64,000 bases of DNA from an uncultured bacterium (GCA_903892035.1 CAITGV010000001.1:355310-419309); one strand, 5' to 3'; counted from the first letter of the stretch, positions 2,441 to 39,911 are shown. Notes: generated from the letters alone by a model not told the origin. Program-made: numbers and translations.

Positions 2441-2673
2441 CTTGGCAGGCGGGGCAGATGGCAAAAGATCCAGATTTTAAAAATCCTTCCGGCGGGCATT
2501 AAAAACCAAAACCCCGAATTTTTAAGCTTGGAAAATGGGGCAAAATGTGGGAGACAAGTTATCCCCATTGACTGTGAACGGTAGTTTACAGTATACTTAG
2601 ACTGTAGTCGTTAAAATAATATTATAATAATCTTAAGTATTTGTAGTAAAAATTTGCTACAATAAATAAACAC

Positions 2674-3597
2674 ATGAAAACACCACTTAACTATACAGGC
2701 AATAAGTCACGATTAATGGATCAATTTAAAAATCATTTTCCAAAAGATGTTAACGTGTTTGTTGATTTATTTTGTGGTGGTGCAACTGTCGGTTTGAGTG
2801 TAGATGCAAAAAAGGTTATTTTTATAGATAACAATATTAATGTAATTAATCTACTAAAGCATCTATCAAAATATAATTTTGATACACTACTACTCAGATT
2901 AGAAACATTGGTGGAAAAATATGGTCTATCTTACTCAGCTAAGCATGGTTATAAAAAATACAAAAAACTATCCGGAGAGACTGATAATAACGGATTTAAG
3001 GAATATAATACATTGGGTTATTACAAACTACGCTCAGATTACAACTCAGTAAAAGATAAGTCTTCCAAAGAAGCGTGCGACCTCCTCTATCTTTTGGTTG
3101 TCTATGCTTTCAATAACGATATGCGTTTCAATAGAAGTGGGGAATTTAACCTACCTATTGGCAAGACTGATTTAAATAAAAATAATATAGAGAAACTAAA
3201 ACAGTATATTGATAGAGTTAAAAAGATAGATTGTGATTTTATATGTGGTGATTTCAGAGAGGAAAATATAAAAAAGATTTTAATGGATGCAGATTTTATT
3301 TATGCTGATCCACCTTATCTGATAGGTAATGCTGTTTATAATGAAACAAGTAACTGGACAGAACAAACAGAACAGGAACTTATCGATTTATTAGAGTTGT
3401 TGAATAAAAGCAAAAAGAGGTTTGCAGTTTCAAATGTTTTAGATAAAGTCGGGGCATCAAATAAACCACTGTCTGATTGGTTGTTTAATCGAAACGATCT
3501 TCATATAGTTGACATTGATTACCACTATAGGGGTGCCAGTTATAATAAAATCAATAGAGCCGCAAGAGAAAGAGAAGTATTGATAAAAAATTTCTAA
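2674..3597 (+). CDS. D12-class N6-adenine DNA methyltransferase (Dam-like)
   Basis: N-terminal NYTGNKSRL and FVDLFCGGATVG (AdoMet-binding motif I), and a DPPY catalytic motif (ADPPYL). This order is typical of MethyltransfD12 family enzymes. Confidence 0.8.
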   Translation: MKTPLNYTGNKSRLMDQFKNHFPKDVNVFVDLFCGGATVGLSVDAKKVIFIDNNINVINLLKHLSKYNFDTLLLRLETLVEKYGLSYSAKHGYKKYKKLSGETDNNGFKEYNTLGYYKLRSDYNSVKDKSSKEACDLLYLLVVYAFNNDMRFNRSGEFNLPIGKTDLNKNNIEKLKQYIDRVKKIDCDFICGDFREENIKKILMDADFIYADPPYLIGNAVYNETSNWTEQTEQELIDLLELLNKSKKRFAVSNVLDKVGASNKPLSDWLFNRNDLHIVDIDYHYRGASYNKINRAAREREVLIKNF

Positions 3598-3601
3598 TTG
3601 T

Positions 3602-4612
3602 ATGGACTTATTGATTGGGAATAGAAGATACACAGGAAGCAAAAAAGCTCTCCTTGAAGATATTTATACAAGTATCAGTCCTTACCCTAAAGGAAGGATT
3701 GTATTTGCTGACTTATTTGCTGGTACTGGAATAGTGTCTGCCTTCATGCTTGGGAAGGGAATGAGTGTTATTGTAAATGATTTTTTGCAGTCGAATTATA
3801 TAGCATATCAAGCTTGGTTTGGATGTGGAGATTATAGTAAAAAAAAACTTGAGCGGATTATTGCTGAATTTAACTCCCTAAATAGCAGTAAGCTAAAAGA
3901 AAATTATTTCTCTAAGATTTACGGCAATAAATACTTTTCTGTATCTGATGCTAAAAAAATAGGATATATAAGAGAAAAACTCGAAAAAATAAAACTTACA
4001 AAGCGTGAAAAAAGCATACTAGTAACTTCACTCATGTACGCAACCGACAAGATTGCTAATACTGTCGGACATTTTGAGCATTTTCTTTCAAAAAAACCTC
4101 AAGATAAGGGAGTTTTATTGAAATTACCACATATTGAGCCATTTATTGGAAATGCAACAATATACAAAATGGATGCTAATAAACTTGCACGTGAGATTAC
4201 TTGTGATATTGCGTATATTGACCCGCCCTATAATGCTCGCCAGTATGTAAATTTTTACCACGTTCTGGAAAACTTAGTGCAGTGGGATAAACCAACTGAG
4301 TTTGAAGGAACTTCAATGAAGTTTAAAAGAAATCATTTAAAAAGTGATTACTCAAAGTCAAAAGCACCTATGGTTTTCAAAGATCTAATTGATAATTTAC
4401 AAGCAAAGTTAATTGTGGTATCGTATAATAACACTTACTCCGCAAAGAGTAGTGCCTCTAATAATAAAATATCTGAATCCCAGTTATTAGATATTCTTTC
4501 GTCTAAAGGTAAAGTCACGGTTAGCGAAATCAAACACAGGTCTTTTAATAGCGGTAAAACAGACTTCAAGGATCATAAAGAAATCTTATATATCTGTAAA
4601 ACAAATTTATGA
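3602..4612 (+). CDS. second D12-class N6-adenine DNA methyltransferase
   Basis: RYTGSKKAL, FADLFAGTG and DPPYNAR motifs. Lies immediately downstream of the first MTase and overlaps the next ORF by 4 nt (ATGA). Confidence 0.75.
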   Translation: MDLLIGNRRYTGSKKALLEDIYTSISPYPKGRIVFADLFAGTGIVSAFMLGKGMSVIVNDFLQSNYIAYQAWFGCGDYSKKKLERIIAEFNSLNSSKLKENYFSKIYGNKYFSVSDAKKIGYIREKLEKIKLTKREKSILVTSLMYATDKIANTVGHFEHFLSKKPQDKGVLLKLPHIEPFIGNATIYKMDANKLAREITCDIAYIDPPYNARQYVNFYHVLENLVQWDKPTEFEGTSMKFKRNHLKSDYSKSKAPMVFKDLIDNLQAKLIVVSYNNTYSAKSSASNNKISESQLLDILSSKGKVTVSEIKHRSFNSGKTDFKDHKEILYICKTNL

Positions 4613-6015
4613 GTTTATTACAAACATATATAGAAAGAAATAAAAATCATGAGTGGTTTGCTAAATATTTTTCTTTAGGAAAAGGTAGTAGTGGTCGTTT
4701 GTTTGAGTATACTAACACTAATTTTAGAGAGCAAAAATCTTTTTTTGAGCAATTTAAAAAATTTGAAAAGATTGAAGATAAAGAAAGGAAAGACTGGGGA
4801 TTAGTTGAATCTAGTGGACAAGAAAAAGATAAGCAGAGAGTTGTAAATATGCTTGCCTCGAAGCTTTTTATGAGGGAGTTAAAAGGCGCAAGAAGGTCTA
4901 AAAATTTTATTTTTCATAAGACCAAAAAAGGTGCAATATACCACAAGTTTTTAAGTGAAAATTTCTCCGAACCAGAAAAGTGGTTTCTAAATTACCTATT
5001 TTTATTGGATGGTCATTATACAAACGAGGAGAGATATATAATCAAAAGAACCAATTTACTTCATCAGAAAATGTCGGCGGTTATTTTAAATACAGAAGCA
5101 TTAATAAGAAAAATAGAAGAAGTTATTGATAAGTCATACAATAAATATGAGTTGATAAAAAAAGATTTTTTCTACCTTAGTTCTTTTTACGATGACGCAG
5201 AATTTTTAGAACTATATTTACATTCAAATGATTTAGAAAAAAAAGAATTGCATGACTATATAAGTAAAAATTTAAAAGAAAAAAATGATGCATGTTGTAT
5301 ATCTAAAAAATATAAACCCAAGAGTAATTTTAATGCGGGTACTTTTATCGATGAAAGTAAGGTATTTTACTTCACTCTTATTTTAGAACAAGTAAAAAAT
5401 AATAATATAAGCAATGTGGTAACTCAATTATTGAGAAAGTATACTTTTATATATAAAAAAACAAATGTCAAAAAAGTCAAAAGTTTTATTGACGAAAAGT
5501 TTGCATTGGATATTTTTTATGCAGTATTTGTTAACGTTCTTGATATAAAAGAAGAACTAACAGAGGAAACTCGCGTAGCAGTAGAGGGGATGGAACTAGA
5601 AGAAGTCGGTCCTCAGAATTATATAGATGATACTACAATTGAAGGAAGGAGGATAACAAAACAATTATTTACACTTAAGAAAAAAAGAGCAAGAGAAATT
5701 GCTAATTATAAGTGTTCTCTAGAGAAACTGAATAATTGTAGATATTTCACTAATAAAGTAAGCAATAAGCCATATATTGAGGTTAATCATCTTATACCGC
5801 AAGAATTTAGGAATGAATTTTCTAATTCAATTGAGGTTTTTGCTAATTATACTGCCATATGTCCTCACTGCCACGCAATGTTACATAAGGCGGTAGATAA
5901 TGAAAGAAAACCATTAATAAATTATTTATACAATGAGAGATCAGCCAAATTAGAAGCCATGGGCATAGGTGTTGAATTAAAAACACTGTATGAATTTTAT
6001 AGAATTAATATTTAA
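4609..6015 (+). CDS. HNH-nuclease domain protein, putative restriction endonuclease of the R-M system
   Basis: C-terminal HNH motif (NHLIP...N...CPHCHAMLH). Translationally coupled to the upstream MTases. The roughly 380-aa N-terminal region has no recognisable motif. Confidence 0.55.
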   Translation: MSLLQTYIERNKNHEWFAKYFSLGKGSSGRLFEYTNTNFREQKSFFEQFKKFEKIEDKERKDWGLVESSGQEKDKQRVVNMLASKLFMRELKGARRSKNFIFHKTKKGAIYHKFLSENFSEPEKWFLNYLFLLDGHYTNEERYIIKRTNLLHQKMSAVILNTEALIRKIEEVIDKSYNKYELIKKDFFYLSSFYDDAEFLELYLHSNDLEKKELHDYISKNLKEKNDACCISKKYKPKSNFNAGTFIDESKVFYFTLILEQVKNNNISNVVTQLLRKYTFIYKKTNVKKVKSFIDEKFALDIFYAVFVNVLDIKEELTEETRVAVEGMELEEVGPQNYIDDTTIEGRRITKQLFTLKKKRAREIANYKCSLEKLNNCRYFTNKVSNKPYIEVNHLIPQEFRNEFSNSIEVFANYTAICPHCHAMLHKAVDNERKPLINYLYNERSAKLEAMGIGVELKTLYEFYRINI

Positions 6016-6124
6016 AAGAAAATAAAACTTATAAATAGAAGAAGACTCCAACTAGGAATATGGGTCAATGTGTGTTATTGTTTTAATATATAAAACCTAT
6101 TATTATTTTAACTATTTAAGCATT

Positions 6125-10290: not shown

Positions 10291-10325
10291 AAAAGTAGAA
10301 ATGCAAACAAGAGTTAGTTATCCAC

Positions 10326-10359
10326 AAATATCTTGTGAACATATGTTCACAAGATATTT
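10326..10359. promoter_or_regulatory. LexA box (perfect Cheo box GAACATATGTTC inside a 34-nt perfect palindrome)
   Basis: aaatatcttgtgaacatatgttcacaagatattt, lying 22 nt upstream of the ATG of the RhuM/Doc gene. Confidence 0.65.
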
Positions 10360-10380
10360 GTTTGGTGGTAAAATTAAAGT

Positions 10381-11379
10381 ATGAAAAAGAAAATCGTAGA
10401 AAAAAAGAATAATAAAAATGGTTTGGTAATCTATCAGGCAAAATCTGGAGCAATTGAGCTCCGGGGAGATATTAGTAAGGAGACTATTTGGGCGACACAA
10501 GCTCAAATTATAAAGTTATTTGGAATTGACCAATCTGTTGTGTCTAGACACATTAAAAATGTCTTTAAAGATAAGGAAATTGACCTAAGAAGCAATATGC
10601 AAAAAATGCATATTGCAAATTCAGACAAACCAGTGATTCTGTATTCATTAGATGTTATTCTTGCCGTTGGATATCGCACAAATTCAAAAACTGCTATTGA
10701 TTTTCGAAGATGGGCCACAAAGACTCTTAAAGAATATCTTGTTCAGGGATATGTTGTAAATGAAAAGCGTCTGCTTGAAGCCAAAGAGAATTTCAATAAA
10801 TTACAAAATACGATTGCATTTCTTAATGAAAAATCACACAAGGAATTACTTTCTGGGCAAGGTAAAGAGATTTTGGATTTGCTTGGTTCGTATGCCAAGA
10901 CACTCACATTGCTCGATGAGTATGATAGAGGCGAGCTCAGTTCCGCAAAAGGCACAAAAGGTAAATTTGTTATTTCATATGAACATTGTTTGGAAGTAAT
11001 TATCGAAGTCAGGAATGAACTTGCAAACAAAGGAGAAGCGAGTGAGCTTTTTGGTTGTGAGCGAGATGGTTCGTTTGGGGGAATTATCAAAGGGCTTTAT
11101 CAAACATTTGGTGGAAAGGAGTTATATTCAACTCTTGAAATAAAAGCTGCACATATCTTGTATTTGATTATAAAAGATCATCCTTTTTCTGATGGGAACA
11201 AAAGAATGGGTTCATTTCTCTTTGTGTATTTCTTAGACAAAAACAATGCTCTATATCGTGAACATGGTGAGAAGAAAATTAATGACAATGCGCTCGCTTC
11301 GCTCGCGCTTCTAATTGCCGAAAGCGATCCTAATGAAAAAGATCAAATGATTGCACTTATTACACAATTGTTGAAGTAA
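10381..11379 (+). CDS. RhuM-family / Fic-Doc domain protein (Doc-type motif HPFSDGNKR)
   Basis: The C-terminal motif HPFSDGNKR matches the Doc-subfamily signature Hx[FY]x[DN]GNKR. The N-terminal region resembles RhuM-like proteins. Confidence 0.6.
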   Translation: MKKKIVEKKNNKNGLVIYQAKSGAIELRGDISKETIWATQAQIIKLFGIDQSVVSRHIKNVFKDKEIDLRSNMQKMHIANSDKPVILYSLDVILAVGYRTNSKTAIDFRRWATKTLKEYLVQGYVVNEKRLLEAKENFNKLQNTIAFLNEKSHKELLSGQGKEILDLLGSYAKTLTLLDEYDRGELSSAKGTKGKFVISYEHCLEVIIEVRNELANKGEASELFGCERDGSFGGIIKGLYQTFGGKELYSTLEIKAAHILYLIIKDHPFSDGNKRMGSFLFVYFLDKNNALYREHGEKKINDNALASLALLIAESDPNEKDQMIALITQLLK

Positions 11380-11408: not shown

Positions 11409-11900
11409 ATGAGTACTAAAAAAACATATTTGGCAGGAGGGTGTTTCTGGGGATTGGAAGAATTGATGCGAAGTCAGCCTGGGGTGAAAAATATTATCGC
11501 TGGTTACGCTGGTGGGACGAATGAAAATCCAACTTACGAAAATCATCCAGGTCATGCGGAAGCATTAGAGATTGAATACGATACAGAAGTCACAAGCTTT
11601 TGGAAACTTTTGGATTTCTTTTTTCAGATTCACAATCCAACGACAAAGAATCAACAGGGGAATGATATTGGTGATTCGTATCGAAGCGCGATTTTTTATC
11701 AAAACGATGAAGAATTGCAAAAAGCAAAGGATTTTATAAAAATCGTCAACGATTCAAAGCGTTGGGATGCTCCAGTGGTCACGACACTTGAGCCTTTTAC
11801 AAAGTTTTGGCCAGCAGAAGACTATCATCAAGACTATTTGCAAAGGAATCCTGGTGGCTACACCTGCCACGCAATTTATTTCGATAGTTATTTGGATTAA
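11409..11900 (+). CDS. msrA: peptide-methionine (S)-S-oxide reductase MsrA
   Basis: GCFWG active-site motif near the N-terminus, followed by the typical MsrA core. Confidence 0.85.
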   Translation: MSTKKTYLAGGCFWGLEELMRSQPGVKNIIAGYAGGTNENPTYENHPGHAEALEIEYDTEVTSFWKLLDFFFQIHNPTTKNQQGNDIGDSYRSAIFYQNDEELQKAKDFIKIVNDSKRWDAPVVTTLEPFTKFWPAEDYHQDYLQRNPGGYTCHAIYFDSYLD

Positions 11901-11943
11901 ATATTTCCGAAAATAAAATCACAAATTGTGATAATATCAGCTC

Positions 11944-12288
11944 ATGAGAGTCTGGGATATACATCCGAAACATTTGTGTAGAAAGCATTTGCTCGCCGAA
12001 CATCGTGAGCTTCATGGGCTTTGGAATATTTTGACGAAACATGGCGGAGTGGGTGGATATTCGAGACACCCAGAGACTTTGCGTTGGGTGGGCAAGACTC
12101 GTGCATTATATTTGCGTCACGAAATGCTCGTGCAAGAATTTATACGTCGTGGATACAAGCATCATACTCCACTTGATAAAAAGTTGGCAAAAGGTTCTGC
12201 GAATCAGAGTGTGTTTATAAACACCGCTCGTGAACAAAAAGAAATTTTGAAAAATAAAATGTGCGAATGTTTACTAGATATGCACTAA
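11944..12288 (+). CDS. pyrimidine-dimer DNA glycosylase-like protein (Pyr_excise-like)
   Basis: N-terminal MR.WDIHPK.L....LLAEHRELH pattern resembling the endonuclease V/denV-like family. Assigned by motif resemblance only. Confidence 0.4.
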   Translation: MRVWDIHPKHLCRKHLLAEHRELHGLWNILTKHGGVGGYSRHPETLRWVGKTRALYLRHEMLVQEFIRRGYKHHTPLDKKLAKGSANQSVFINTAREQKEILKNKMCECLLDMH

Positions 12289-12332
12289 GTGTTATCTTTT
12301 TATTAAATTCAAATTAAGTGTAGAATGGGTGA

Positions 12333-12557
12333 ATGACAGAACAAAAAAACAATCCACTACACGGAGTGACACTCGAATTTATTTTGAAATTTCTTGTGGA
12401 ACAATATGGCTTCGAGGAATTGGGGGAGAGGATAAGAATAAATTGTTTCGTGAGTGACCCGAGTATAAATTCTAGTTTGAAATTTCTACGCAAAACTCCT
12501 TGGGCACGCAAAAAGGTGGAGGATTTGTATTTGTATACTAAAAGAAAAATTGGTTAA
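12333..12557 (+). CDS. DUF2132 (VF530-like) small protein
   Basis: LHGVTLE.IL..LVE.YG.EELG pattern typical of DUF2132. Confidence 0.45.
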
Positions 12558-12850: not shown

Positions 12851-12880
12851 ATCAATTTATAAAGTTTTCCACATATTGTT

Positions 12881-12910
12881 TTGACTGTGAACGACTGTTC
12901 ACGTTATAAT
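12881..12910 (+). promoter_or_regulatory. promoter with embedded LexA box (TTGACT-GTGAACGACTGTTCAC-TATAAT)
   Basis: -35 TTGACT at 12881-12886, GAAC-N4-GTTC at 12889-12900, -10 TATAAT at 12905-12910. Lies 7 nt before the ORF at 12917. Confidence 0.6.
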
Positions 12911-12916
12911 ATTTGA

Positions 12917-14026
12917 ATGACAAATATTTTTTCTAGAAATTTGTTTGGAATTTTTTTAATAATAATATTAACAATTATTTTTCCAACACAGAGTTTCGCT
13001 TCATATCATTTTTCAAATTTTCGTGGACGTCCACCGATTCATGTTTATAAAACTACCGGCAGTATTCCGATGGGTATGACACCAGCGATGATAAAAAATA
13101 TTTATATTTTACCCGCAAGTGGCGGACAGGGAACTATCGCTATCGTTGGTGCATACGATGATACAAGTATTGAAAAAGATTTGGTAGATTTTAGTAAGAC
13201 TTTTAATTTAACATCGTGTACTGTTTCAAATGGTTGTTTTGAAAAACATAAAATGTCTTCAAAAATAAAAGCTGATAGCAATTGGGCTCTTGAGACAACT
13301 CTCGATGTAGAGTGGGCTCACGCGATAGCACCACAGGCAAAAATCTTACTAGTCGAAGCGGTGACGCCATCGGGAGCTAACCTTTTGAATGCAGTAGATT
13401 ATGCATCAAAAAGAAATGATGTATCGGCAATATCGATGAGCTGGGGCGGAAGTGAATTTCCAGAAGAAGTAAATTTGGATCCACATTTTAAAAGTATTTC
13501 TGGTGCGAAGTATTTTGCTTCGTCGGGAGACAATGGCACGGGGGCGTCGTGGCCAGCTTCATCACCAGATGTTATTGCTGTCGGAGGTACGACACTTGTT
13601 TTAAATAGTAATGGAAATGTTTCAAAAGAAATTGCATGGTCTGGATCGGGTGGTGGCATATCTCAATATGAAAAAGCTCCAACGTATCAAAAAGATTATT
13701 CAATTTCAAAAAGTGGCGGCATGCGCGCAATTCCAGATGTGGCGTACGACGCAGATCCGAAATCTGGCTTTCCAATAATTCGTGGTGGGGTGTGGCGTAC
13801 TGTTGGTGGCACTTCAGCCGGTGCCCCACAATGGGCAGCAATTTCCACTCTTGGTTCGGGTGCAAGTAATGATAATTTTTATTCCGACAAAGCTGGTTCA
13901 AATAGTAGTTCTTATTTTCGTGATATTACAAGTGGAGCAAATGGCGATTGTGGCTACGTGTGCAATGCTCGTAAACATTATGATTTTGTGACAGGACTAG
14001 GGACTCCAAAGACTGTAAACTTTTAG
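12917..14026 (+). CDS. secreted S53/S8-like serine peptidase
   Basis: N-terminal signal/TM segment and a GGTSAGAP motif around the catalytic Ser (sedolisin/subtilisin-like). Confidence 0.5.
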   Translation: MTNIFSRNLFGIFLIIILTIIFPTQSFASYHFSNFRGRPPIHVYKTTGSIPMGMTPAMIKNIYILPASGGQGTIAIVGAYDDTSIEKDLVDFSKTFNLTSCTVSNGCFEKHKMSSKIKADSNWALETTLDVEWAHAIAPQAKILLVEAVTPSGANLLNAVDYASKRNDVSAISMSWGGSEFPEEVNLDPHFKSISGAKYFASSGDNGTGASWPASSPDVIAVGGTTLVLNSNGNVSKEIAWSGSGGGISQYEKAPTYQKDYSISKSGGMRAIPDVAYDADPKSGFPIIRGGVWRTVGGTSAGAPQWAAISTLGSGASNDNFYSDKAGSNSSSYFRDITSGANGDCGYVCNARKHYDFVTGLGTPKTVNF

Positions 14027-14219
14027 AGATAGCAAAATTTTGGTAGAAAAGATTTTATTAAAAAATCACGAATGGAAATCTTATTCAGCAAAGCGATTAC
14101 GTGGATCACAAATGGCAGAAAATTTAAAAATCTTGGAAGCAGAATATGATCAAATCTTAAAAAACAAATAAAAAAGGAATGCCACTAGTGCATCCCTTCT
14201 TTCTTTTTTTTGAGGAAGA

Positions 14220-14393
14220 CTATTTTTTTTCGTCTGGCTCAATTTCTTTTTTTTCGAAAAGTTCCTCGTGAGAGGTCTCTTCGTGGTTGATGATGACAAT
14301 TGCATCACCTGCCCTAACAGATACTGTTACAGTTCCATTAGGTTCTTTTGTGAAGTTGATACCCTGAGGGATCATTTTAATTTGTACTGACAT
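14220..14393 (-). CDS. small hypothetical protein (57 aa)
   Basis: An ORF not in the supplied track because it is under 60 aa (MSVQIKMIPQGINFTKEPNGTVTV...). Followed on its strand by an A/T-flanked hairpin at 14170-14215. Confidence 0.25.
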   Translation of the reverse strand: MSVQIKMIPQGINFTKEPNGTVTVSVRAGDAIVIINHEETSHEELFEKKEIEPDEKK

Positions 14394-14481
14394 ATTTTTT
14401 TTATTTAATTGTGAGCTAGTATTATAGCATTTTAAATATATAAAGTCAAGAAAAGCGGTGATGTGCTAAATAAGCTATAAT

Positions 14482-14883
14482 TTGCAAATGAAATTCAGAT
14501 GGAAGAGGGTTGTATTTCGAATACGAGTGAAGGGACCAAAAAAATTGTTGGGGCATTTGAGAGTGAAGGATTACAGGGAAAACAAGGAGGCCGCGCGAGG
14601 GAGGGCCCTCGCGCGGCTTTCGCATTTCAATCAATTTTACAATCTAAAAGTTGGCAAGGTTTTCATTCGTAATCAAAAGTCACGATGGGGAAGTTGCTCA
14701 AGCAAAGGCAATTTGAATTTCAATTATAAAATTGCAATGCTTCCGAGCGAACTTTCGGACTACATCATAGTCCACGAACTTTGCCACCTCGCACAAATGA
14801 ATCACTCAAAAAATTTCTGGTCCCTAGTAGAACAACAAATTCCAAATTACAAAAATCTCCGCGCTGAACTTAAGAAATATTGA
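14482..14883 (+). CDS. DUF45/YgjP-like zinc metallohydrolase, N-terminally short or truncated
   Basis: The C-terminal half of the DUF45 family, including an HExxH motif (HELCHL) and the RWGSCS segment. The usual roughly 100-aa N-terminal part is missing. Confidence 0.5.
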   Translation: MQMKFRWKRVVFRIRVKGPKKLLGHLRVKDYRENKEAARGRALARLSHFNQFYNLKVGKVFIRNQKSRWGSCSSKGNLNFNYKIAMLPSELSDYIIVHELCHLAQMNHSKNFWSLVEQQIPNYKNLRAELKKY

Positions 14884-14887
14884 TCAC

Positions 14888-14917
14888 TTGCATTGTGAAC
14901 AATCGTTCACGTATAAT
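14888..14917 (+). promoter_or_regulatory. promoter with embedded LexA box upstream of dinB
   Basis: -35 TTGCAT, GAACAATCGTTC at 14897-14908, -10 TATAAT at 14912-14917. Confidence 0.65.
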
Positions 14918-14923
14918 GTAGGA

Positions 14924-16180
14924 ATGAATGAAGAGGGAATAGAGAAAAAGCAAAAAGAGAGAATATTTTTTCATATGGATGGTGATGCATTTTTTGTCGG
15001 TGTAGAAATAGCTAAGAATCCAAAATTGAAAGGCTTGCCCGTGGTGACCGGAGAAGAGCGGGGAATTGTCTCTGCACTTTCGTATGAAGCCAAAGCGCTC
15101 GGCATCACACGAGGAATGCCAGTTTTTCGTCTAAAAAAAGAATTTCCAAATGTAATAATTCTTGCCGGAGATTATAAATCATACGCAGAGTATTCGAGTA
15201 GGATGTTTGAAATAGTTCGTCGATATGCGGATGATGTAGAAGAGTACAGCATCGATGAATGTTTTGCCGACCTCACAGGGCTTGATTCGACTTTGTATAT
15301 GAGCTATTTGCAAATTGCACAGAGAATAAAAAAAGAAGTAAATAGTGAACTTGGACTTTCTGTTTCAGTCGGTCTTGCACCGACAAAAGTTCTCGCTAAG
15401 GTTGCTTCGAAATGGGTCAAGCCTGATGGGTTGACGGAAATACGAAAAGAAAATGCCCCAAATTTTTTGTCGAAAACGCCAATAGAAAAAATTTGGGGCC
15501 TTGGTCTGCAAACTTCAACTTTCTTAAAAATAAAAAAAGTTTTTACAGCATTGGATTTTATAAATAAAGATTTGTCTTGGGTGAAAAGAAATTTATCTGC
15601 TCCATATGAGACTATATGGTACGAACTTCGGGGGATTAGGATAATGAGCATTAATCCAGAGCTGAAAATAATTTATTCATCAATACAAAAGACGCGAAGT
15701 TTCCACCCCTCGACAAACGAGAAAAATTTTCTTTTCTCTGAACTCTCAAAACATATTGAAGATGCGTGTAGAAAGGCTCGCCACTACCACCTTGTGCCAA
15801 AAAAAATTTCATTTTTTCTTAAAACAACAAATTTTAAATTCATAACTTTTTCACAAAAAATTTTAATACCAGCAAATTCTCCTGAAGATTATATTTCACT
15901 CGCATATGTGTGGCTCAAAAATTTAGAAAAAACAAAAACACTTTACCGCACGACCGGTGTGACCTTGCACGACTTAGCGTACGATACATTTACGCAAGCA
16001 GATTTATTTGGTCACGGAGAAAAAATTGATAAATTGAAAATAATACACAAACAAATTGATAAATTGGAAAATAAACTTGGTAAAAGATTTGTGCATCTAG
16101 GTTCAAGCCACAAATCACTTTCACGCGAAATGCTTGGCACTGAGCCAGACGAAATAGATCGAAATTTATTATTTTTATAA
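14924..16180 (+). CDS. dinB: DNA polymerase IV (Y-family)
   Basis: Signature FFHMDGDAFFVGVE near the N-terminus, plus SIDECFADLTG. Length and order fit DinB. The start is uncertain: the ORF begins at 14888 with TTG, and the first ATG is at 14924. Confidence 0.8.
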   Translation: MNEEGIEKKQKERIFFHMDGDAFFVGVEIAKNPKLKGLPVVTGEERGIVSALSYEAKALGITRGMPVFRLKKEFPNVIILAGDYKSYAEYSSRMFEIVRRYADDVEEYSIDECFADLTGLDSTLYMSYLQIAQRIKKEVNSELGLSVSVGLAPTKVLAKVASKWVKPDGLTEIRKENAPNFLSKTPIEKIWGLGLQTSTFLKIKKVFTALDFINKDLSWVKRNLSAPYETIWYELRGIRIMSINPELKIIYSSIQKTRSFHPSTNEKNFLFSELSKHIEDACRKARHYHLVPKKISFFLKTTNFKFITFSQKILIPANSPEDYISLAYVWLKNLEKTKTLYRTTGVTLHDLAYDTFTQADLFGHGEKIDKLKIIHKQIDKLENKLGKRFVHLGSSHKSLSREMLGTEPDEIDRNLLFL

Positions 16181-16324
16181 AACAGGTTCTCCGCGAATGA
16201 TTCTTACCAGTATCATAATTATGGCAAGAACCAAAAGAATGTGAATTAGTCCACCAAGGGTAAAAGCTGTCACCATTCCTAAAAGCCAAAGAGTTATTAA
16301 AATGAGTGCAATTGTGAATAACAT
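16175..16324 (-). CDS. Lmo0937-family small membrane protein (49 aa)
   Basis: MLFTIALILITLWLLGMVTAFTLGGLIHILLVLAIIMILVRIIRGEPVL matches the known WLLG...GGLIH.LLV small-protein family. Not in the ORF track because it is under 60 aa. Confidence 0.45.
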   Translation of the reverse strand: MLFTIALILITLWLLGMVTAFTLGGLIHILLVLAIIMILVRIIRGEPVL

Positions 16325-16421
16325 AGATATTTATAATTAAGTTAATAATATTACTTACAATATAAATGCCGTAAGATAACTAAATATATTACAAAATAAA
16401 TAGTTATCCACAGTATTTTTC

Positions 16422-16450
16422 TTGACTGTGAACATGCGTTCACATATAAT
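16422..16450 (+). promoter_or_regulatory. promoter with embedded LexA box upstream of the lexA operon
   Basis: -35 TTGACT at 16422-16427, GAACATGCGTTC at 16430-16441, -10 TATAAT at 16445-16450. Confidence 0.7.
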
Positions 16451-16488
16451 AGAAAGGTAAGAGATTAAAAGTTTAATTATTAAAATAT

Positions 16489-16683
16489 ATGTCAAAAGAT
16501 CAATATATAGTCGCCCTTGAGCGCGAACTCACAAAGCTCAACAAACAAATTGATTTAAAAATAATTCGAGGGGAGAATTATTCATTCGAATCTCGCAAGC
16601 ACAAAATGCTAAAAGAGATTTCAAAGAAATATAAAAAGCCCACTTTCTTTGCACATATATTTCCAATGATGTTAAAATACTAA
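16489..16683 (+). CDS. small hypothetical protein co-transcribed with lexA
   Basis: 64-aa ORF between the LexA-box promoter and lexA. Its stop lies 1 nt from the lexA start. Confidence 0.35.
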   Translation: MSKDQYIVALERELTKLNKQIDLKIIRGENYSFESRKHKMLKEISKKYKKPTFFAHIFPMMLKY

Positions 16684-16684
16684 T

Positions 16685-17251
16685 ATGAAAAACGAATACC
16701 AAAATAAAATTGAAAACTTCCATTCGCGACAGAAAAGAATGCCTACGTACTCCGAAATGATGAAGCTCTTTGGTTTCAAATCTAAAAATGCAGTTTACAG
16801 GGTAGTTGAGAAGCTTATGGATGCAGGGCTAGTGGCAAAAGACCACCTTGGTCGCCTGGTGCCAACAAAAAGTTTTGGAGAGATTCCTATGCTCGGTTCT
16901 GTGACTGCGGGATTCCCAGCAACAGTCGAAGAAGAGCGACATGAGACGATGAATATCGACGATTATCTTGTTGAAAAAAAGGATTCTACATATATGCTTG
17001 AAGTTGATGGTGACTCTATGATCGATGCTCATATTGAAGATGGAGATATGGTCCTAGTCGAACGCACAGACAAAGCCAAAGATGGGCAGATAGTCATAGC
17101 ATATATCGATGGGGAATTTACAATGAAATATTTCCGTAAAAATGCTGACGACGTCTGGCTTGAACCTGCAAATAAAAAATATAAAAACATTTACCCAAAG
17201 CATGACCTTCAGATCACTGCGGTGGTAAAGGCTGTCATACGCAAATACTAG
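16685..17251 (+). CDS. lexA: LexA repressor (S24 peptidase)
   Basis: N-terminal wHTH, an Ala-Gly cleavage site (VTAGFP), and the Ser and Lys catalytic residues in VDGDSM...K context. Confidence 0.85.
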   Translation: MKNEYQNKIENFHSRQKRMPTYSEMMKLFGFKSKNAVYRVVEKLMDAGLVAKDHLGRLVPTKSFGEIPMLGSVTAGFPATVEEERHETMNIDDYLVEKKDSTYMLEVDGDSMIDAHIEDGDMVLVERTDKAKDGQIVIAYIDGEFTMKYFRKNADDVWLEPANKKYKNIYPKHDLQITAVVKAVIRKY

Positions 17252-35855: not shown

Positions 35856-36902
35856 TTATTCCCCAGCGCTTGATGTTTGAATTTCTCCAAAGCGCGCACG
35901 GACTTGTTTTTCAAGTTCCTTTGCAACTTTTGTATTTTCGCGTAGCCACACTCGAGTCGCATCATAACCGCGACCCATAGGAATTTTTTCATTATCTTTA
36001 TCACGATATGAATACGAAGCACCAGATTTTTCTACGATGCCAAGTTTTTCTCCAAGAGCCATCAGTTCACCTTCGTGAGAAATTCCTTCACCGTAAATAA
36101 TATCGAATTCTGTTTGTTTGAAAGGGGAGGCAACTTTATTTTTCACAACCTTTACGCGTGTACGCCCACCGACAACTTCTTCACCTTTTTTAATTTGCGC
36201 AATGCGACGAATGTCGAGACGTATTGATGTGTAAAATTTCAAAGCTTTTCCACCTGGAGTAGTTTCAGGGTTTCCAAACATCACACCAATTTGCATTCTG
36301 ATTTGATTTATAAATATAACAATAGTTTTTGAGCGAGCGACAATAGCTGTGAGTTTTCGAAGCGCTTGCGACATAAGGCGAGCTTGTTTACCCATGTGCT
36401 GCTGGCCCATATCGCCCTCAATTTCGTCTTTTGGAGTAAGTGCTGCGACAGAGTCGATGACAACGACGTCGATTTTTCCAGAGCGTACCAAAGACTCTGT
36501 AATTTCAAGACCTTGTTCTCCAGTGTCTGGTTGGGCGATGAGAAGGTCGTTAATATTCACGCCGAGGTTCTTTGCATATGTTGGGTCCATTGCGTGCTCT
36601 GCGTCGATATATGCGCATACGCCACCTTTCTTTTGAGCCTCAGCGACTATATGTAGAGCGAGTGTGGTTTTTCCAGATGATTCTGGTCCAAAGATTTCAA
36701 TAATGCGTCCTCTTGGTACTCCACCGACTCCGAGAGCCATATCGAGACCCAAAGATCCAGTAGGCACGACATCTATATCGACTTTTGGAGCGTCACCAAG
36801 TTTCATTATTGCTCCTTCTCCAAATTTTGTTTGAATCGACTTAATTGTATCTTCAATCTCTGCACCCATTTCCTTTTTTGCTTTTTCTTTTTTCTTTATC
36901 AT
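35856..36902 (-). CDS. recA: recombinase RecA
   Basis: Walker [10 protein letters not shown] and the highly conserved RecA core ([17 protein letters not shown]..., IDAEHA). Confidence 0.9.
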
Positions 36903-36937
36903 ATATTGTGTAAGAAAAAATTGTTTTAGATTTTTAT

Positions 36938-36971
36938 GCGTGTCGGAGCCCCCGTAGAGAGGGTAAAGCGC
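36938..36971 (-). promoter_or_regulatory. conserved GC-rich 33-nt upstream motif (recA copy)
   Basis: On the recA strand it reads GCGCTTTACCCTCTCTACGGGGGCTCCGACACGC. A near-identical copy lies upstream of rplL at 49809-49846 in the same orientation relative to the gene. Confidence 0.45.
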
Positions 36972-37005
36972 TAAAAATGTAAAATAATTTTTTCTGTAAC
37001 GTTAT

Positions 37006-37365
37006 TTACGTATTACTCTTATAATAGACCCTATAATTTTTTTCAATTTGCCTTCCAAACGAATCTTCGCTATGGATGTTTACTATATTGTATCCAGGAA
37101 TTAAAACCAATGATTCATTGAACTGACTCGCACCATTAAATGAAATTGCTCGACCATCGATAGCAAACAATTTCATTTTTTTTGCTGTACCTGTGATATT
37201 TACAATAGGGGAGTTGAAAACTTGTCCATCAAAGATGCCACTAATTTTTATATTTGAACCAAAAAGTGCATCTTTCATTTTAAAATAAGTATAAGTACCT
37301 GCAACTATGAAAAGTACAATTAATGCTCCGATATTTATTTTTGTTTTAAAATCATGTTTTGTCAT
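37006..37365 (-). CDS. hypothetical membrane-anchored protein
   Basis: The ORF track starts at 37437 inside a repeat element. The likely start is the Met at 37365 (MTKHDFKTKINIGALIVLFIV), which precedes a TM helix. Confidence 0.4.
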   Translation of the reverse strand: MTKHDFKTKINIGALIVLFIVAGTYTYFKMKDALFGSNIKISGIFDGQVFNSPIVNITGTAKKMKLFAIDGRAISFNGASQFNESLVLIPGYNIVNIHSEDSFGRQIEKNYRVYYKSNT

Positions 37366-37377
37366 TTTTGTATTCCT

Positions 37378-37418
37378 CCCTCTCCTTAATAAGGAGAGGG
37401 TCAGGGAGAGGTTCTTAT
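37378..37418. repeat. GC-rich palindromic intergenic element
   Basis: CCCTCTCCttaataaGGAGAGGG + TCAGGGAGAGGTTCTTAT. Confidence 0.6.
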
Positions 37419-39643
37419 ATTGTATCACTCTCCGCATGATCCATTGGTCGTTCCATCACTTCTCTTGGTTTTGCTCCGTCACCGGGGCCGACTACTCCAC
37501 GCTCTTCCAACATATCGATAAGTCTTGCAGCTCGAGCGTAACCAACTTTCAATTTTCTTTGTAAATATGAAGTCGAGGCTTTTCCAGCTTCTATCACGAC
37601 CATTCTAGCTTCTTCATACATATCATCGTCATCACTATCGCTGTCCACCATTGATTCAAATATAGATTTGTCTGGGCTCATTGTGCCAGTGAGTGTAATT
37701 TCGTCTGGAACTTCATCCTGGTAGCTCTTCACCAAGTATTTTACCACCTTTTTGACTTCTTCTTCAGAAATAAAAGCAGACTGAAGGCGCTCTGGTTGAG
37801 ACATTTCTCCTGACATATAAAGCATATCTCCAGCTCCAAGAAGTTTTTCCGCTCCTCCCTGGTCAAGAATTGTACGTGAGTCTATTTGTGAAGATACTTG
37901 TAGAGCAATGCGAGCAGGAATATTTGCTTTGATGAGTCCTGTAATGACGTTTACACTTGGGCGCTGTGTGGAAAGAATAAGGTGAATACCGACAGCACGA
38001 GACATTTGTGCGAGGCGGACGATAGCGCTTTCGAGTTCACGTGGGTAGCTTTGCATAATATCTGCCAACTCATCGATGATGACTACAATAAACGGCATTT
38101 TTTCTGCTTCTGCACCAGTGTCTTCACCTTTTTTGTTTTTTTGATTTTTACCAAGGACATTTGCATGATAGCTCTCGATATCACGCACAGACTCTGATTC
38201 GAGAATGTCATATCTGCGATCCATTTCTTTTGCAGCCCACTTGAGTGCAAGGATAGCTTTCTTTGGATCTGTGATGACAGGTGTAAGCAAGTGGGGGATT
38301 TTATTGTAAAGCGTAAGTTCCACACGTTTCGGGTCCACCATTATAAAACGCATTTCTTCTGGACCATTTCTATATAGTAATGAAGTGATGAGAGCGTGAA
38401 TGGTTACAGATTTTCCAGAACCAGTTGCTCCTGCGATAAGTAGGTGAGGCATCTTTCCCATATTTCCAAAAAATGATTTTCCAGAAATTCCTTTTCCGAG
38501 TGCCATGAGCAAAGGTTTTCCTCCATTTTGAAATTTATCATCCGAAAGAAGTGTTGCGAGGCCGACTGTGGACTTTACTCTGTTTGGAATTTCAATACCG
38601 ACGAGTGATTTGCCAGGGATAGGGGCTTCGATACGAATAGGGTGAGCAGCGAGTGCGAGTGCGAGGTCGTTTTGAAGTCCTACGATTCGTGAGAGTTTCA
38701 TTCCTTCCGCAGGTTTTAGAGCATAGCGAGTGACGGTAGGCCCAATTGTAATTTCATCCATTTCGACAAGAATACCGAAGTTTTGAAGTGTGCGACGAAT
38801 GATATTTGCATTGGCTTTAATATCGCCGACATTTGGTTTACCTTTGTCTTCTTCGAGAAGTGAAAGTGGTGGTGGAACGTAAGCAGAATTTTTCTTTGGA
38901 TTTGCTTTTACAACAAAATCATCATCACTTTCCTCCCCTCCTTTTTGAGGAGGGGATTGAGGGGTGGTGGTTTCCTCAGATTCACCTACCTCTTCCTCTT
39001 TATAATCACCACCCCCTGCCCCCTCCTCGTCAAGAAGGGGGTTCTCGTCATCATCTCCAATTTCTTTTCCATGTTCAAAAAACATATTCTTAAAGAAATT
39101 GAAAATCTTTTTAAACATTGGAACAAGGTTTGGTCGTGCATCAAAAATTATTATAAAAGAAATGATGAGTAGTCCACCTAGGAAAAGTATTCCTGCATAA
39201 TTTCCAAAAAGTTTTGTAAAAGGATAGCTTGCGATGGATCCTACATAACCACCCGACATATCGCTAGAAATATTGAAAAGTCCAAGTGTTGAAGTTAGAA
39301 ATAAAAGTCCACCGATGGTGTGCGTGAGTGCGATATTTGGTCTTTGTTCTTTTGCAAAAGATATACCAAAAAGAATACAAAGAATTGGTAGAAATAAATA
39401 TCCATAACCAAATAGTGAGCTAAAAAGTGTGTGGAAAAAATTCCCAGCAGGTCCTGCAATATTGAGCCCAGCAAGAATAAAAAAAAGTGCAAGAACAAAT
39501 GCTACAACTGCTAGAACTCCGTGCCTAGTTTCATCAGAAATTTTTGAACTTGTATTTGATTTTTTTGCCACTTCTTTTTTTTCCTTTTTATCAACCTTTT
39601 TAATTATTTTTTCAGTATCAGATTTTACTTTTTTTACAGCCAT
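37415..39643 (-). CDS. ftsK: DNA translocase FtsK/SpoIIIE
   Basis: N-terminal TM helices, Walker A GATGSGKS, and the FtsK alpha/beta/gamma order. The likely start is MAVKKVK at 39643; the longer track ORF runs into a repeat element. Confidence 0.85.
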   Translation of the reverse strand: MAVKKVKSDTEKIIKKVDKKEKKEVAKKSNTSSKISDETRHGVLAVVAFVLALFFILAGLNIAGPAGNFFHTLFSSLFGYGYLFLPILCILFGISFAKEQRPNIALTHTIGGLLFLTSTLGLFNISSDMSGGYVGSIASYPFTKLFGNYAGILFLGGLLIISFIIIFDARPNLVPMFKKIFNFFKNMFFEHGKEIGDDDENPLLDEEGAGGGDYKEEEVGESEETTTPQSPPQKGGEESDDDFVVKANPKKNSAYVPPPLSLLEEDKGKPNVGDIKANANIIRRTLQNFGILVEMDEITIGPTVTRYALKPAEGMKLSRIVGLQNDLALALAAHPIRIEAPIPGKSLVGIEIPNRVKSTVGLATLLSDDKFQNGGKPLLMALGKGISGKSFFGNMGKMPHLLIAGATGSGKSVTIHALITSLLYRNGPEEMRFIMVDPKRVELTLYNKIPHLLTPVITDPKKAILALKWAAKEMDRRYDILESESVRDIESYHANVLGKNQKNKKGEDTGAEAEKMPFIVVIIDELADIMQSYPRELESAIVRLAQMSRAVGIHLILSTQRPSVNVITGLIKANIPARIALQVSSQIDSRTILDQGGAEKLLGAGDMLYMSGEMSQPERLQSAFISEEEVKKVVKYLVKSYQDEVPDEITLTGTMSPDKSIFESMVDSDSDDDDMYEEARMVVIEAGKASTSYLQRKLKVGYARAARLIDMLEERGVVGPGDGAKPREVMERPMDHAESDTI

Positions 39644-39678
39644 ATATGCGGATATTATAGCATATTGATTTTGAATTT

Positions 39679-39727
39679 CCCCCTCCCATTTATAAGGGGA
39701 GGGGTTGGGGAGAGGTGAATTAAGAAC
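39679..39727. repeat. GC-rich palindromic intergenic element (variant)
   Basis: CCCCCTCCCatttataaGGGGAGGGG + TTGGGGAGAGGTGAATTAAGAACC. Confidence 0.6.
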
Positions 39728-39911
39728 CCATCCTAAATCCTTCCCAAAGGGAAGGACAAAAAATCCGCCCTGCCCCGTGATGCGTACTCGCATTTTACGG
39801 GGTTGCAATTATTTCTCTGTCCGTTATATAATGGACAAACGAAATACATAAAAACTCCAAAATTTTTACCAAAAAGACACGCAGAATTTTAAAAGACAAG
39901 CTTAGAGACAT

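What the first reader, a model, noticed from the sequence alone, without database searches (positions are those of the whole stretch)
12881..17251. Compact SOS regulon with box-in-promoter architecture; recA lacks a box
Three promoters share the layout TTGACT / GTGAAC-N4-GTTCAC / TATAAT, with the LexA box between the -35 and -10. They lie upstream of (i) a secreted S53-like peptidase (12917), (ii) dinB (14924), and (iii) a 64-aa ORF followed by lexA (16489, 16685). A fourth box serves the Doc/RhuM gene. No GAAC-N4-GTTC is visible upstream of recA (36903-37005). The peptidase as an SOS target is unusual. A degenerate version, TTGACTGTGAACGGTAGTTTAC + TATACT, lies at 2569-2596 ahead of the R-M island.
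Basis: partly seen in the sequence, partly recalled or inferred. Interest (0 to 1): 0.55.

Follow-up and report, generated by a model that had tools for sequence, protein, structure and literature searches.

The report
SOS (LexA) operators in a CPR bacterium
The repeated GTGAAC-N4-GTTCAC palindromes are genuine binding sites for the DNA-damage repressor LexA in a tiny "candidate phyla radiation" bacterium; this is an ordinary SOS system in kind, but this genome has added a secreted protease and two defence loci to it, left recA out, and pairs the LexA site with a conserved DnaA-box-like sequence.

Summary
Four perfect GTGAAC-N4-GTTCAC palindromes (10335, 12887, 14895, 16428) and one 1-mismatch copy (2574) occur, against 0.00 expected. 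The window is from a Ca. Nomurabacteria-like genome (Patescibacteria/CPR). In 80 related genomes the same palindrome sits between -35 and -10 of the lexA promoter in all 80. It occurs nowhere else in 1.33 Mb, so it is the clade's LexA operator and not a generic promoter feature. The 64-aa ORF is a real, conserved gene fused to lexA in 79/80 relatives. recA sits in a conserved ftsK-x-recA cluster with no box in this genome or in six relatives. The S53 peptidase box is specific to this genome: 76 metagenomic homologues plus the four closest lack a promoter box. The degenerate box before the R-M genes gains support because the same R-M cassette lies inside the lexA operon of another genome. "Compact regulon" cannot be judged from 64 kb; locally the regulon is expanded relative to relatives. 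It lies 25-27 nt upstream of the LexA box in 75/79 lexA promoters and accompanies four of the five boxes here. The kind is known (Gram-positive-type SOS; Patescibacteria SOS published 2017). Interest is moderate.

The parts
16404..16412 (+). TTATCCACA (exact DnaA-box consensus) upstream of the lexA-operon -35
   Evidence: Exact 9-mer in 75/79 related lexA promoters and 1 mismatch in 3 more, starting 25-27 nt before GAAC. Here the offset is 26.
16422..16450 (+). lexA-operon promoter: -35 TTGACT, LexA operator GTGAACATGCGTTCAC (16428-16443), -10 TATAAT
   Evidence: The same arrangement occurs in 80/80 relatives.
16489..16683 (+). orf64: conserved small helical protein, first gene of the lexA operon
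   Evidence: tblastn hit directly upstream of lexA in 79/80 loci. Its stop overlaps or abuts the lexA start. There are 11 invariant columns and 84 representative clusters in 1.84 billion proteins, nearly all 60-90 aa. No Pfam, NCBIfam or PDB family matches. AF2 predicts three helices, pLDDT 72.
16685..17251 (+). lexA (188 aa), with Ala75-Gly76 cleavage site, Ser111 and Lys148
   Evidence: Peptidase_S24 E 7e-31. TIGR00498 is above its cutoff. Full-length alignment to solved LexA 3K2Z and 1JHH covers the N-terminal domain. Homologues are named LexA in Ca. Nomurabacteria and Paceibacterota.
14888..14917 (+). dinB promoter: -35 TTGCAT, LexA operator GTGAACAATCGTTCAC (14895-14910), -10 TATAAT. The ATG lies 6 nt after the -10, so the mRNA is probably leaderless.
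   Evidence: The TTGCAT -35 variant also occurs at lexA promoters of L048 and L055.
14924..16180 (+). dinB (Y-family DNA polymerase IV)
   Evidence: IMS E 1e-44 and IMS_C E 7e-12. Pol IV models reach E 1e-66. In L023, L066 and L077 dinB follows lexA directly. In L033 it is the fifth gene of the lexA operon.
12865..12910 (+). Peptidase promoter module: TTTTCCACA (12865-12873), -35 TTGACT (12881), LexA operator GTGAACGACTGTTCAC (12887-12902), -10 TATAAT (12905-12910). The ATG lies 6 nt after the -10.
   Evidence: 11 of 12 promoter match.
12917..14026 (+). Secreted S53 (sedolisin/kumamolisin-like) peptidase without a long prodomain
   Evidence: Kumamolisin E 3e-22, with E126, D130, D205 and S300 aligned to the catalytic E78, D82, D164 and S278. 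Homologues are named S53 family peptidase. The signal peptide is seen by inspection. No box lies upstream of homologues.
10318..10374 (+). RhuM/Fic promoter region: TTATCCACA (10318-10326), LexA operator GTGAACATATGTTCAC (10335-10350) overlapping -35 TTCACA (10346), -10 TAAAAT (10369-10374). The box is the core of a 38-nt perfect palindrome (10324-10361).
   Evidence: RNA hairpin of -23 kcal/mol, z -4.8.
10381..11379 (+). RhuM + Fic/Doc protein, a candidate anti-phage defence gene. msrA (11409-11900) follows after 29 nt and may be co-transcribed.
   Evidence: Pfam RhuM E 8e-19 and Fic E 3e-10. PADLOC PDC-S23, full length, E 6.5e-116. msrA, pdg and VF530 are annotated. pdg and VF530 have their own -10-like hexamers close to their ATGs.
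2559..2597 (+). R-M promoter module: TTATCCCCA, -35 TTGACT (2568), degenerate LexA operator GTGAACGGTAGTTTAC (2574-2589), -10 TATACT (2592-2597), then TGTAGTCG 9 nt further on
   Evidence: PWM score is 7.0. TGTAGTCG sits at the same place in the lexA leaders of L001, L007, L016, L065 and L070.
2674..6015 (+). Type II R-M cassette: two D12-class (Dam-like) methyltransferases plus a 468-aa putative endonuclease
   Evidence: Pfam MethyltransfD12. PADLOC MTase_II. The same three genes (72-79% identity) lie inside the lexA operon of L068.
35856..39808 (-). ftsK - 143-aa gene - recA cluster without any LexA box
   Evidence: Pfam. No site in the PWM scan. The synteny is the same and no site at <=2 mismatches occurs in six relatives.

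Best explanation
The window comes from a Ca. Nomurabacteria-like member of the Patescibacteria (CPR). GTGAAC-N4-GTTCAC is the operator of its LexA repressor. It is a Gram-positive ('Cheo box', GAAC-N4-GTTC) type palindrome.

In the lexA-operon, dinB, peptidase and R-M promoters the operator fills the spacer between the -35 and -10 hexamers. A bound LexA dimer would therefore occlude RNA polymerase; this step is inferred. At the RhuM/Fic gene it overlaps the -35.

After DNA damage, RecA filaments would trigger LexA self-cleavage. The Ala75-Gly76 site, Ser111 and Lys148 are present. Cleavage would derepress:
- orf64-lexA (autoregulation)
- dinB
- in this genome only, a secreted S53 peptidase
- a RhuM/Fic defence-candidate gene, perhaps with msrA
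- probably a type II R-M cassette

recA is outside the regulon. It is expressed from the conserved ftsK-x-recA cluster.

The extra promoters look like re-used copies of the lexA promoter module (TTATCCACA-like box, -35, operator, -10). They are not ancient regulon members.
For: Motif statistics: 4 perfect 16-mers against 0.00 expected.

Phylogenetic footprint: the operator lies between TTGACA and TATACT upstream of orf64-lexA in 80/80 related genomes.

Specificity:
- 0 other matches at <=1 mismatch in 1.33 Mb.
- GAAC-N4-GTTC elsewhere is at chance level, 14 against 16 expected.
- 1 non-promoter near-match in 483 kb of other Patescibacteria loci.

The LexA protein is bona fide.

dinB is a canonical target and is physically inside the lexA operon in L023, L066, L077 and L033.

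The boxed promoters are among the best sigma-70 matches in 2-18 kb.

The R-M cassette lies inside the lexA operon of L068.

recA has no site here or in six relatives.
Against: - There is no binding or expression data. CPR organisms are mostly uncultured.
- The peptidase box is absent from 76 metagenomic homologues plus the four closest homologues. Comparative support therefore exists only for lexA and dinB, and indirectly for the R-M cassette.
- The R-M operator has a mismatch at a position (GTTC to GTTT) that is invariant in 80 lexA sites.
- The RhuM/Fic site could be primarily a hairpin.
- Only 64 kb of a contig of about 0.36-0.49 Mb was seen, so the true regulon size is unknown.
Confidence: 0.85

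Rival explanations
1. The palindrome is a generic promoter or spacer feature of this genome, or the site of some regulator other than LexA.
For: Formally, no binding data exist. The site always coincides with strong -35 and -10 hexamers.
Against: - Only 4-5 sites occur in 64 kb.
- Other strong promoters lack it: 14449(-) at 11 of 12 match, the 23S rRNA promoter, and the promoters at 41056 and 52570.
- In 80 relatives it occurs only at lexA.
- It matches the known Gram-positive LexA half-sites. Autoregulated placement at lexA is the classic signature.
Confidence: 0.03
2. The boxes at the peptidase, RhuM/Fic and R-M genes are evolutionary by-products. Copies of the lexA promoter module were carried along by rearrangement or horizontal transfer in a variable island. 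LexA may bind them, but there is no selected 'SOS function' for these genes.
For: - The peptidase box is not conserved in any of 80 homologues.
- The lexA neighbourhood is non-syntenic with relatives.
- G+C falls to 0.28-0.30 across the R-M/GmrSD segment.
- The ygjP gene next to dinB is truncated.
- The R-M promoter carries the clade's lexA-leader signature TGTAGTCG and -10 TATACT. The cassette sits in a lexA operon in L068. Together these suggest derivation by loss of orf64-lexA.
Against: - Three of these sites are perfect or near-perfect and keep consensus -35 and -10 hexamers, which argues for maintenance.
- LexA control of toxins, mobile and defence functions is common elsewhere (own knowledge).
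- This reading is compatible with the mechanism of the best explanation. It disputes only adaptive meaning.
Confidence: 0.35
3. The 10324-10361 palindrome acts mainly as an RNA hairpin that terminates the upstream dagK gene (9940-10290). The LexA-box core would be incidental or secondary.
For: It has a 17-bp perfect stem with a 4-nt loop, -23 kcal/mol, z -4.8. It starts 34 nt after the dagK stop. The geometry differs from the other four sites.
Against: - A perfect 12/12 match to the operator is not expected by chance.
- The stem is A+T-rich and is not followed by a clean T-run, and the terminator scan did not call it.
- A TTATCCACA lies just upstream, as at the lexA promoter.
- A -35/-10 pair (10346-10374) follows, 7 nt before the RhuM/Fic ATG.
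Confidence: 0.2

Closest known systems
Gram-positive SOS system (Bacillus subtilis 'Cheo box' CGAAC-N4-GTTCG; Actinobacteria TCGAAC-N4-GTTCGA)
   Same: The half-sites (GAAC/GTTC) and the 4-bp spacer are the same. lexA is autoregulated, and an error-prone polymerase is a target. LexA has an S24 autopeptidase domain. The Gram-positive core regulon is described in PMC7739468.
   Different: The flanks are GT...AC, giving GTGAAC...GTTCAC. recA, a core member in Gram-positives, is not controlled. lexA is preceded by a clade-specific 64-aa gene. The local targets include a secreted S53 peptidase, a RhuM/Fic protein and an R-M cassette.
Patescibacteria SOS network (Sanchez-Osuna, Barbe and Erill 2017, Environ Microbiol 19:3465; cited in PMC8565304 and PMC7739468)
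   Same: It concerns the same superphylum and the same question, the LexA motif and regulon by comparative genomics. It is therefore direct prior art for 'an SOS regulon in CPR bacteria'.
   Different: The paper is not in the held library, so I could not check its motif or gene list. PMC7739468 cites it, among three references, in a sentence on LexA's complex evolutionary history that mentions independently evolved direct-repeat motifs. My recollection of a small regulon is unverified. The genome-specific targets, the orf64 linkage and the TTATCCACA element may or may not be reported there.
Dual DnaA/LexA control of E. coli uvrB, recN and dinJ (Wurihan et al. 2018, PMC6015884; review PMC8203912)
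   Same: A DnaA box (consensus TTATCCACA) sits beside or overlaps LexA boxes in SOS promoters.
   Different: Here the DnaA-like box is at the master regulator's own promoter. It sits at a fixed offset upstream of the -35 and is conserved in 75/79 genomes. DnaA binding is not shown.
Minimal SOS-like networks (HdiR in Streptococcaceae, UmuDAb in Acinetobacter; summarised in PMC8565304)
   Same: The regulon is very small and centred on the repressor's own gene plus an error-prone polymerase. In many relatives a single operator controls one operon that contains lexA with or without helicase, MGMT and dinB.
   Different: The repressor here is a canonical LexA (TIGR00498), not HdiR or UmuDAb.

Membership tests
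LexA/SOS regulon | Repressor with S24 autopeptidase domain, Ala-Gly cleavage site and Ser/Lys dyad | tested here: met
   PF00717 E 7e-31. TIGR00498 scores 133.7 bits, above the 110.95 cutoff. Alignment to 3K2Z and 1JHH places A75-G76, S111 and K148.
LexA/SOS regulon | N-terminal winged-helix DNA-binding domain | tested here: inconclusive
   Residues 9-70 align to the N-terminal domains of solved LexA proteins and to the full-length TIGR00498 model. Pfam PF01726 itself gave no hit.
LexA/SOS regulon | Palindromic operator in the promoter of lexA itself, conserved among relatives | tested here: met
   80/80 related lexA promoters carry it. It occurs nowhere else in 1.33 Mb.
LexA/SOS regulon | Operator at DNA-repair or translesion genes | tested here: met
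   dinB has a perfect box. dinB lies in the lexA operon in four relatives.
LexA/SOS regulon | recA under LexA control (a core member in most phyla, PMC8565304) | tested here: not met
   No site is found in the window or in six related ftsK-x-recA loci. This is not a defining feature of the system, only of its usual core.
LexA/SOS regulon | LexA binds the sites and the genes are induced by DNA damage | not testable with these tools
   This needs EMSA, reporters or transcriptomics.
Peptidase family S53 (sedolisin/kumamolisin) | Ser-Glu-Asp catalytic triad plus an oxyanion Asp in a subtilisin-like fold | tested here: met
   phmmer to kumamolisin 1T1E gives E 3e-22 over residues 23-365. E126, D130, D205 and S300 align to E78, D82, D164 and S278. 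Sources name homologues 'S53 family peptidase'.
Peptidase family S53 (sedolisin/kumamolisin) | N-terminal activation prodomain (Pro-kumamolisin type) | tested here: not met
   The catalytic domain starts at about residue 51, after a signal peptide. No Pfam prodomain hit was found.
DnaA box / DnaA-regulated promoter | 9-mer matching TTATCCACA | tested here: met
   Exact match at 16404 and 10318, and 1 mismatch at 12865 and 2559. Exact in 75/79 related lexA promoters. The consensus is taken from PMC8203912.
DnaA box / DnaA-regulated promoter | Bound by DnaA, with an effect on transcription | not testable with these tools
   No dnaA or oriC region was present in the window or in 1.8 Mb of fetched loci, so even the organism's own box usage could not be checked.

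The most novel reading that the evidence does not exclude
The lexA promoter of this CPR clade is a composite DnaA-LexA switch. An exact DnaA box is fixed about 9 nt upstream of the -35, centred near -49. It is as conserved as the LexA operator itself: 75/79 genomes, and it is also present at distant LexA-like genes in L082 and L117. It travels with the operator to the peptidase, RhuM/Fic and R-M promoters. If DnaA binds there, replication-initiation status and DNA damage would be integrated at the SOS master regulator and at defence and secretion genes, in organisms with very few transcription factors.
Probability: 0.3. Interest if true: 0.6.

Novelty: new member of a known kind. Interest (0 to 1): 0.38.

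Why it matters
This is a clean, comparatively validated example of an SOS system in an uncultured, genome-reduced lineage. In most relatives a single operator governs one operon, orf64-lexA with or without a helicase, an MGMT-like gene, dinB or an R-M cassette.

It shows how such a minimal regulon grows by re-using the lexA promoter module. In this genome the module sits in front of a secreted protease and two defence-type loci.

It also gives three concrete, testable leads:
- an uncharacterised small protein always co-transcribed with lexA
- recA kept outside LexA control across the clade
- a DnaA-box-like element coupled to the LexA operator

None of this changes the known concept of the SOS response.

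Tried and rejected
- **Generic promoter motif:** rejected.
- **Conserved SOS control of the S53 peptidase:** rejected. 1 of 76 metagenomic homologues has any GAAC-N4-GTTC within 220 nt, and it is not promoter-proximal. The four closest homologues (72-75% identity) have none.
- **Hidden or degenerate box at recA, or at ftsK upstream of it:** none found here or in six relatives.
- **Identity of orf64:** Pfam, NCBIfam, PADLOC and a PDB profile search gave nothing. Only weak, probably spurious Lon_lid (25/78 members, best E 8e-4) and HisKA hits appeared. A single-sequence AF2 model has three helices (pLDDT 72), and Foldseek found nothing with E < 3.
- **oriC-like DnaA-box clusters, to calibrate the TTATCCACA reading:** none in the fetched DNA.
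- **An ncRNA downstream of the TTATCCACA promoter at 41040:** no Rfam match.
- **Ungapped leader identity between the R-M promoter and lexA leaders:** uninformative in A+T-rich sequence. Only the TGTAGTCG motif at a fixed distance is informative.
- **rhuM/fic-msrA-pdg-VF530 as one LexA-controlled operon:** weakened. pdg and VF530 have their own -10-like hexamers just upstream of their ATGs.
- **The 2017 Patescibacteria SOS paper:** could not be read. Papers citing it give no details.
Full report
**1. Observation**

The pattern GAAC-N4-GTTC occurs four times in the window against 0.8 expected. The full 16-mer GTGAACNNNNGTTCAC occurs four times against 0.00 expected, with none in 100 shuffles. 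The sites are at 10335, 12887, 14895 and 16428. A one-mismatch copy, GTGAACGGTAGTTTAC, lies at 2574.

Reading the sequence together with the promoter scan gives these layouts:
- Peptidase: TTGACT-18-TATAAT, 12881-12910.
- lexA operon: TTGACT-17-TATAAT, 16422-16450.
- R-M genes: TTGACT-18-TATACT, 2568-2597.
- dinB: TTGCAT-18-TATAAT, 14888-14917.

In each of these the palindrome fills the spacer. At the RhuM/Fic gene the box instead overlaps a -35 (TTCACA 10346-17-TAAAAT 10374).

**2. Organism and genes**

The LexA protein is 72-80% identical to proteins named LexA from Ca. Nomurabacteria, Paceibacterota and Patescibacteria MAGs. The window is therefore from a CPR bacterium.
- LexA has an S24 domain and passes the TIGR00498 equivalog cutoff. 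It aligns over its whole length to solved LexA structures, with Ala75-Gly76, Ser111 and Lys148 in place.
- ORF 14924-16180 is a Y-family polymerase.
- ORF 12917-14026 gave no Pfam hit. It aligns to kumamolisin at E 3e-22 with the S53 catalytic residues conserved. It has a signal peptide but no long prodomain.
- ORF 10381-11379 is RhuM+Fic/Doc. It is a full-length match to the PADLOC defence candidate PDC-S23.
- ORFs 2674-6015 are two Dam-like type II methyltransferases plus a 468-aa protein. A GmrSD type IV enzyme follows.
- recA (35856-36902, minus strand) follows a 143-aa gene and ftsK.

**3. Is the palindrome the LexA operator?**

I fetched 80 related lexA loci from species-representative genomes.
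- All 80 have GTGAAC-N4-GTTCAC upstream of lexA, between TTGACA and TATACT.
- In the 1.33 Mb of these loci there is no other match with up to one mismatch.
- Bare GAAC-N4-GTTC elsewhere is at chance level, 14 against about 16 expected.
- A further 483 kb of Patescibacteria loci gave one non-promoter near-match.

Together with the half-site identity to the Gram-positive LexA box (own knowledge; the Gram-positive regulon is discussed in PMC7739468), the operator assignment is well supported. Repression by promoter occlusion and RecA-stimulated cleavage are inferred from the established LexA mechanism (PMC8565304).

**4. The lexA operon**

The 64-aa ORF is a real gene.
- A homologue lies directly upstream of lexA in 79/80 loci. 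It often overlaps the lexA start by 8 nt.
- It has 11 invariant positions.
- The family has 84 representative clusters among 1.84 billion proteins, nearly all small stand-alone proteins.
- It has no family assignment. The predicted structure is three helices.

Its function is unknown. Its obligatory co-transcription with lexA makes an SOS-linked role, as a modulator of LexA or RecA or as a checkpoint protein, the most reasonable guess.

Downstream of lexA, relatives often append further genes with tiny gaps. These include dinB (L023, L066, L077). They also include a P-loop helicase-like protein, an MGMT-like protein and dinB (L033 and six others). One relative appends an R-M cassette (L068).

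**5. recA**

No site is found near recA or ftsK in the window. Six relatives keep the ftsK-x-recA order with 2-30 nt between x and recA. None has a site with up to two mismatches anywhere in about 9 kb. Absence of LexA control of recA is therefore a clade property. It departs from the usual core but has precedents in other lineages (own knowledge).

**6. The extra targets**

*Peptidase.* 76 metagenomic homologues (45-68% identity) and the four closest available (72-75%) have no promoter box. The box is therefore a recent, genome-specific acquisition.

*R-M cassette.* The operator carries a mismatch at an otherwise invariant position. Two observations support it.
- The same three genes (72-79% identity) form the distal part of the lexA operon in L068.
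- The window's R-M promoter carries the clade-typical -10 TATACT and the motif TGTAGTCG 9 nt downstream, exactly as in several lexA leaders. GTCG lies within 6-15 nt of the -10 in most of the 51 of 79 leaders that carry it, against 7.7% background.

The simplest history is a lexA-operon promoter left in front of the R-M genes after loss of orf64-lexA.

*RhuM/Fic.* The box is perfect, but it is the core of a 38-nt hairpin that could also terminate dagK. msrA follows after 29 nt. pdg (pyrimidine-dimer glycosylase) and VF530 further downstream seem to have their own promoters.

All five sites lie within 14 kb next to lexA. That region is not syntenic with relatives and has low-G+C segments. Relative to the one-site neighbourhoods of 80 relatives this is an expansion, so 'compact' is not the right word for what the window shows.

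**7. A missed element**

TTATCCACA, the DnaA-box consensus (PMC8203912), occurs five times exactly in the window against 0.67 expected, all on the + strand.
- It lies 26 nt before the lexA operator. One-mismatch or exact copies lie 17-24 nt before the R-M, RhuM/Fic and peptidase operators. dinB has none.
- In relatives it is exact in 75/79 lexA promoters and has one mismatch in three more, always 25-27 nt before GAAC.
- It is also found at the promoters of distant LexA-like genes in L082 and L117.
- It is enriched relative to permuted 9-mers in all data sets.
- Outside LexA promoters it tends to precede a -10-like hexamer by 20-41 nt: 17/49 against 11% for controls.

DnaA/LexA co-regulation has a precedent in E. 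coli uvrB, recN and dinJ (PMC6015884). Whether DnaA binds here is untested. No oriC or dnaA region was available for calibration.

**8. Comparison and novelty**

In kind this is a Gram-positive-type SOS system, and an SOS network has already been described for the Patescibacteria (Sanchez-Osuna et al. 2017). I could not read that paper. The finding is therefore a new member of a known kind.

The genome-specific targets, the orf64-lexA fusion, the clade-wide exclusion of recA and the DnaA-box coupling are its more interesting details. The last is the most novel reading not excluded by the evidence.

**9. Verdict**

The mechanism is standard LexA repression (confidence about 0.85 for lexA and dinB, about 0.7 for the peptidase and RhuM/Fic, about 0.5 for R-M). 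Interest is moderate.

Noticed in passing
window 16404-16412, 10318-10326, 12865-12873, 2559-2567; also 41040, 48430, 52544 and 55013; L001-L080 lexA promoters: The exact DnaA-box consensus TTATCCACA lies at a fixed offset upstream of the LexA operator: 75/79 relatives exact, and four of the five boxed promoters here. It is also enriched upstream of non-SOS promoters, with a 1-mismatch copy before the 23S rRNA promoter.
   Followed up: partly
window 16489-16683; L001-L080: A conserved 62-75 aa helical protein is always the first gene of the lexA operon (79/80). It has no known family and forms a narrow family of 84 representative clusters.
   Followed up: partly
L068 9753-14194; window 2559-6015: The same two-methyltransferase R-M cassette lies inside the lexA operon of another Nomurabacteria genome. 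The window's R-M promoter looks like a displaced lexA-operon promoter plus leader start (TATACT-N9-TGTAGTCG).
   Followed up: yes
L001-L080, 6-15 nt downstream of the lexA -10: A conserved GTCG (often AAGTCGG in a small hairpin loop) occurs in 51/79 lexA leaders against 7.7% background. The window's own lexA leader lacks it. Its function is unknown.
   Followed up: partly
L009, L010, L011, L014, L028, L031, L036, L068, L070 lexA leaders; window 40750-40930 and 14590-14617: G+C-rich palindromic repeat elements (such as CCCCTACCCAGCCTCCCCCTATGTAGGGGGAGG...) are inserted in the lexA 5' leaders of at least nine relatives. Similar elements occur in the window. One lies in the N-terminal part of the truncated ygjP-like ORF.
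   Followed up: no
L082 4368-4414; L117 2218-2974; L085: Distant LexA-like S24 genes (22-30% identity) lie next to S53 peptidase homologues in 3 of 80 metagenomic loci. In L117 the two genes are divergent and share an intergenic region with a long inverted repeat. In L082 a GACT-N4-AGTC palindrome sits between -35 and -10, and TTATCCACA abuts the -35.
   Followed up: partly
window 12905-12919, 14912-14926; also 11925-11946 and 12318-12335: The -10 hexamers end 6 nt (9 nt at pdg) before the ATG of the peptidase, dinB, pdg and VF530 genes, which suggests leaderless mRNAs.
   Followed up: no
window 17759-21223; L162 3527-4385: The isoleucyl-tRNA synthetase (1154 aa) carries an inserted histidine-phosphatase domain at residues 512-664. 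A relative's class I tRNA synthetase of similar size (1151 aa) carries a NUDIX domain instead.
   Followed up: no
window 55391-58850: The 23S rRNA spans 3460 nt against a 2925-nt model, which implies an insertion of about 500 nt. No 16S rRNA or tRNA gene lies anywhere in the 64 kb.
   Followed up: no
window 10381-11379 and 6068-7822: The LexA-boxed RhuM/Fic gene is a full-length match to the PADLOC defence candidate PDC-S23. A GmrSD type IV restriction enzyme follows the R-M cassette. The lexA-proximal 14 kb therefore looks like a defence island.
   Followed up: partly
window 14482-14883: The YgjP-like (SprT/WLM-related) metallopeptidase ORF covers only profile positions 109-206 of 207. It is a truncated remnant that ends 5 nt before the dinB -35. 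Intact homologues lie near lexA in L070 and near the peptidase in L117.
   Followed up: no
L033 10589-13771; L071 and five other loci: In seven relatives lexA is followed directly by a 556-564 aa P-loop helicase-like gene. In four of these an MGMT-like 92-96 aa gene comes next, and in L033 dinB follows that. The gaps are under 30 nt, which suggests one long LexA-controlled operon.
   Followed up: partly
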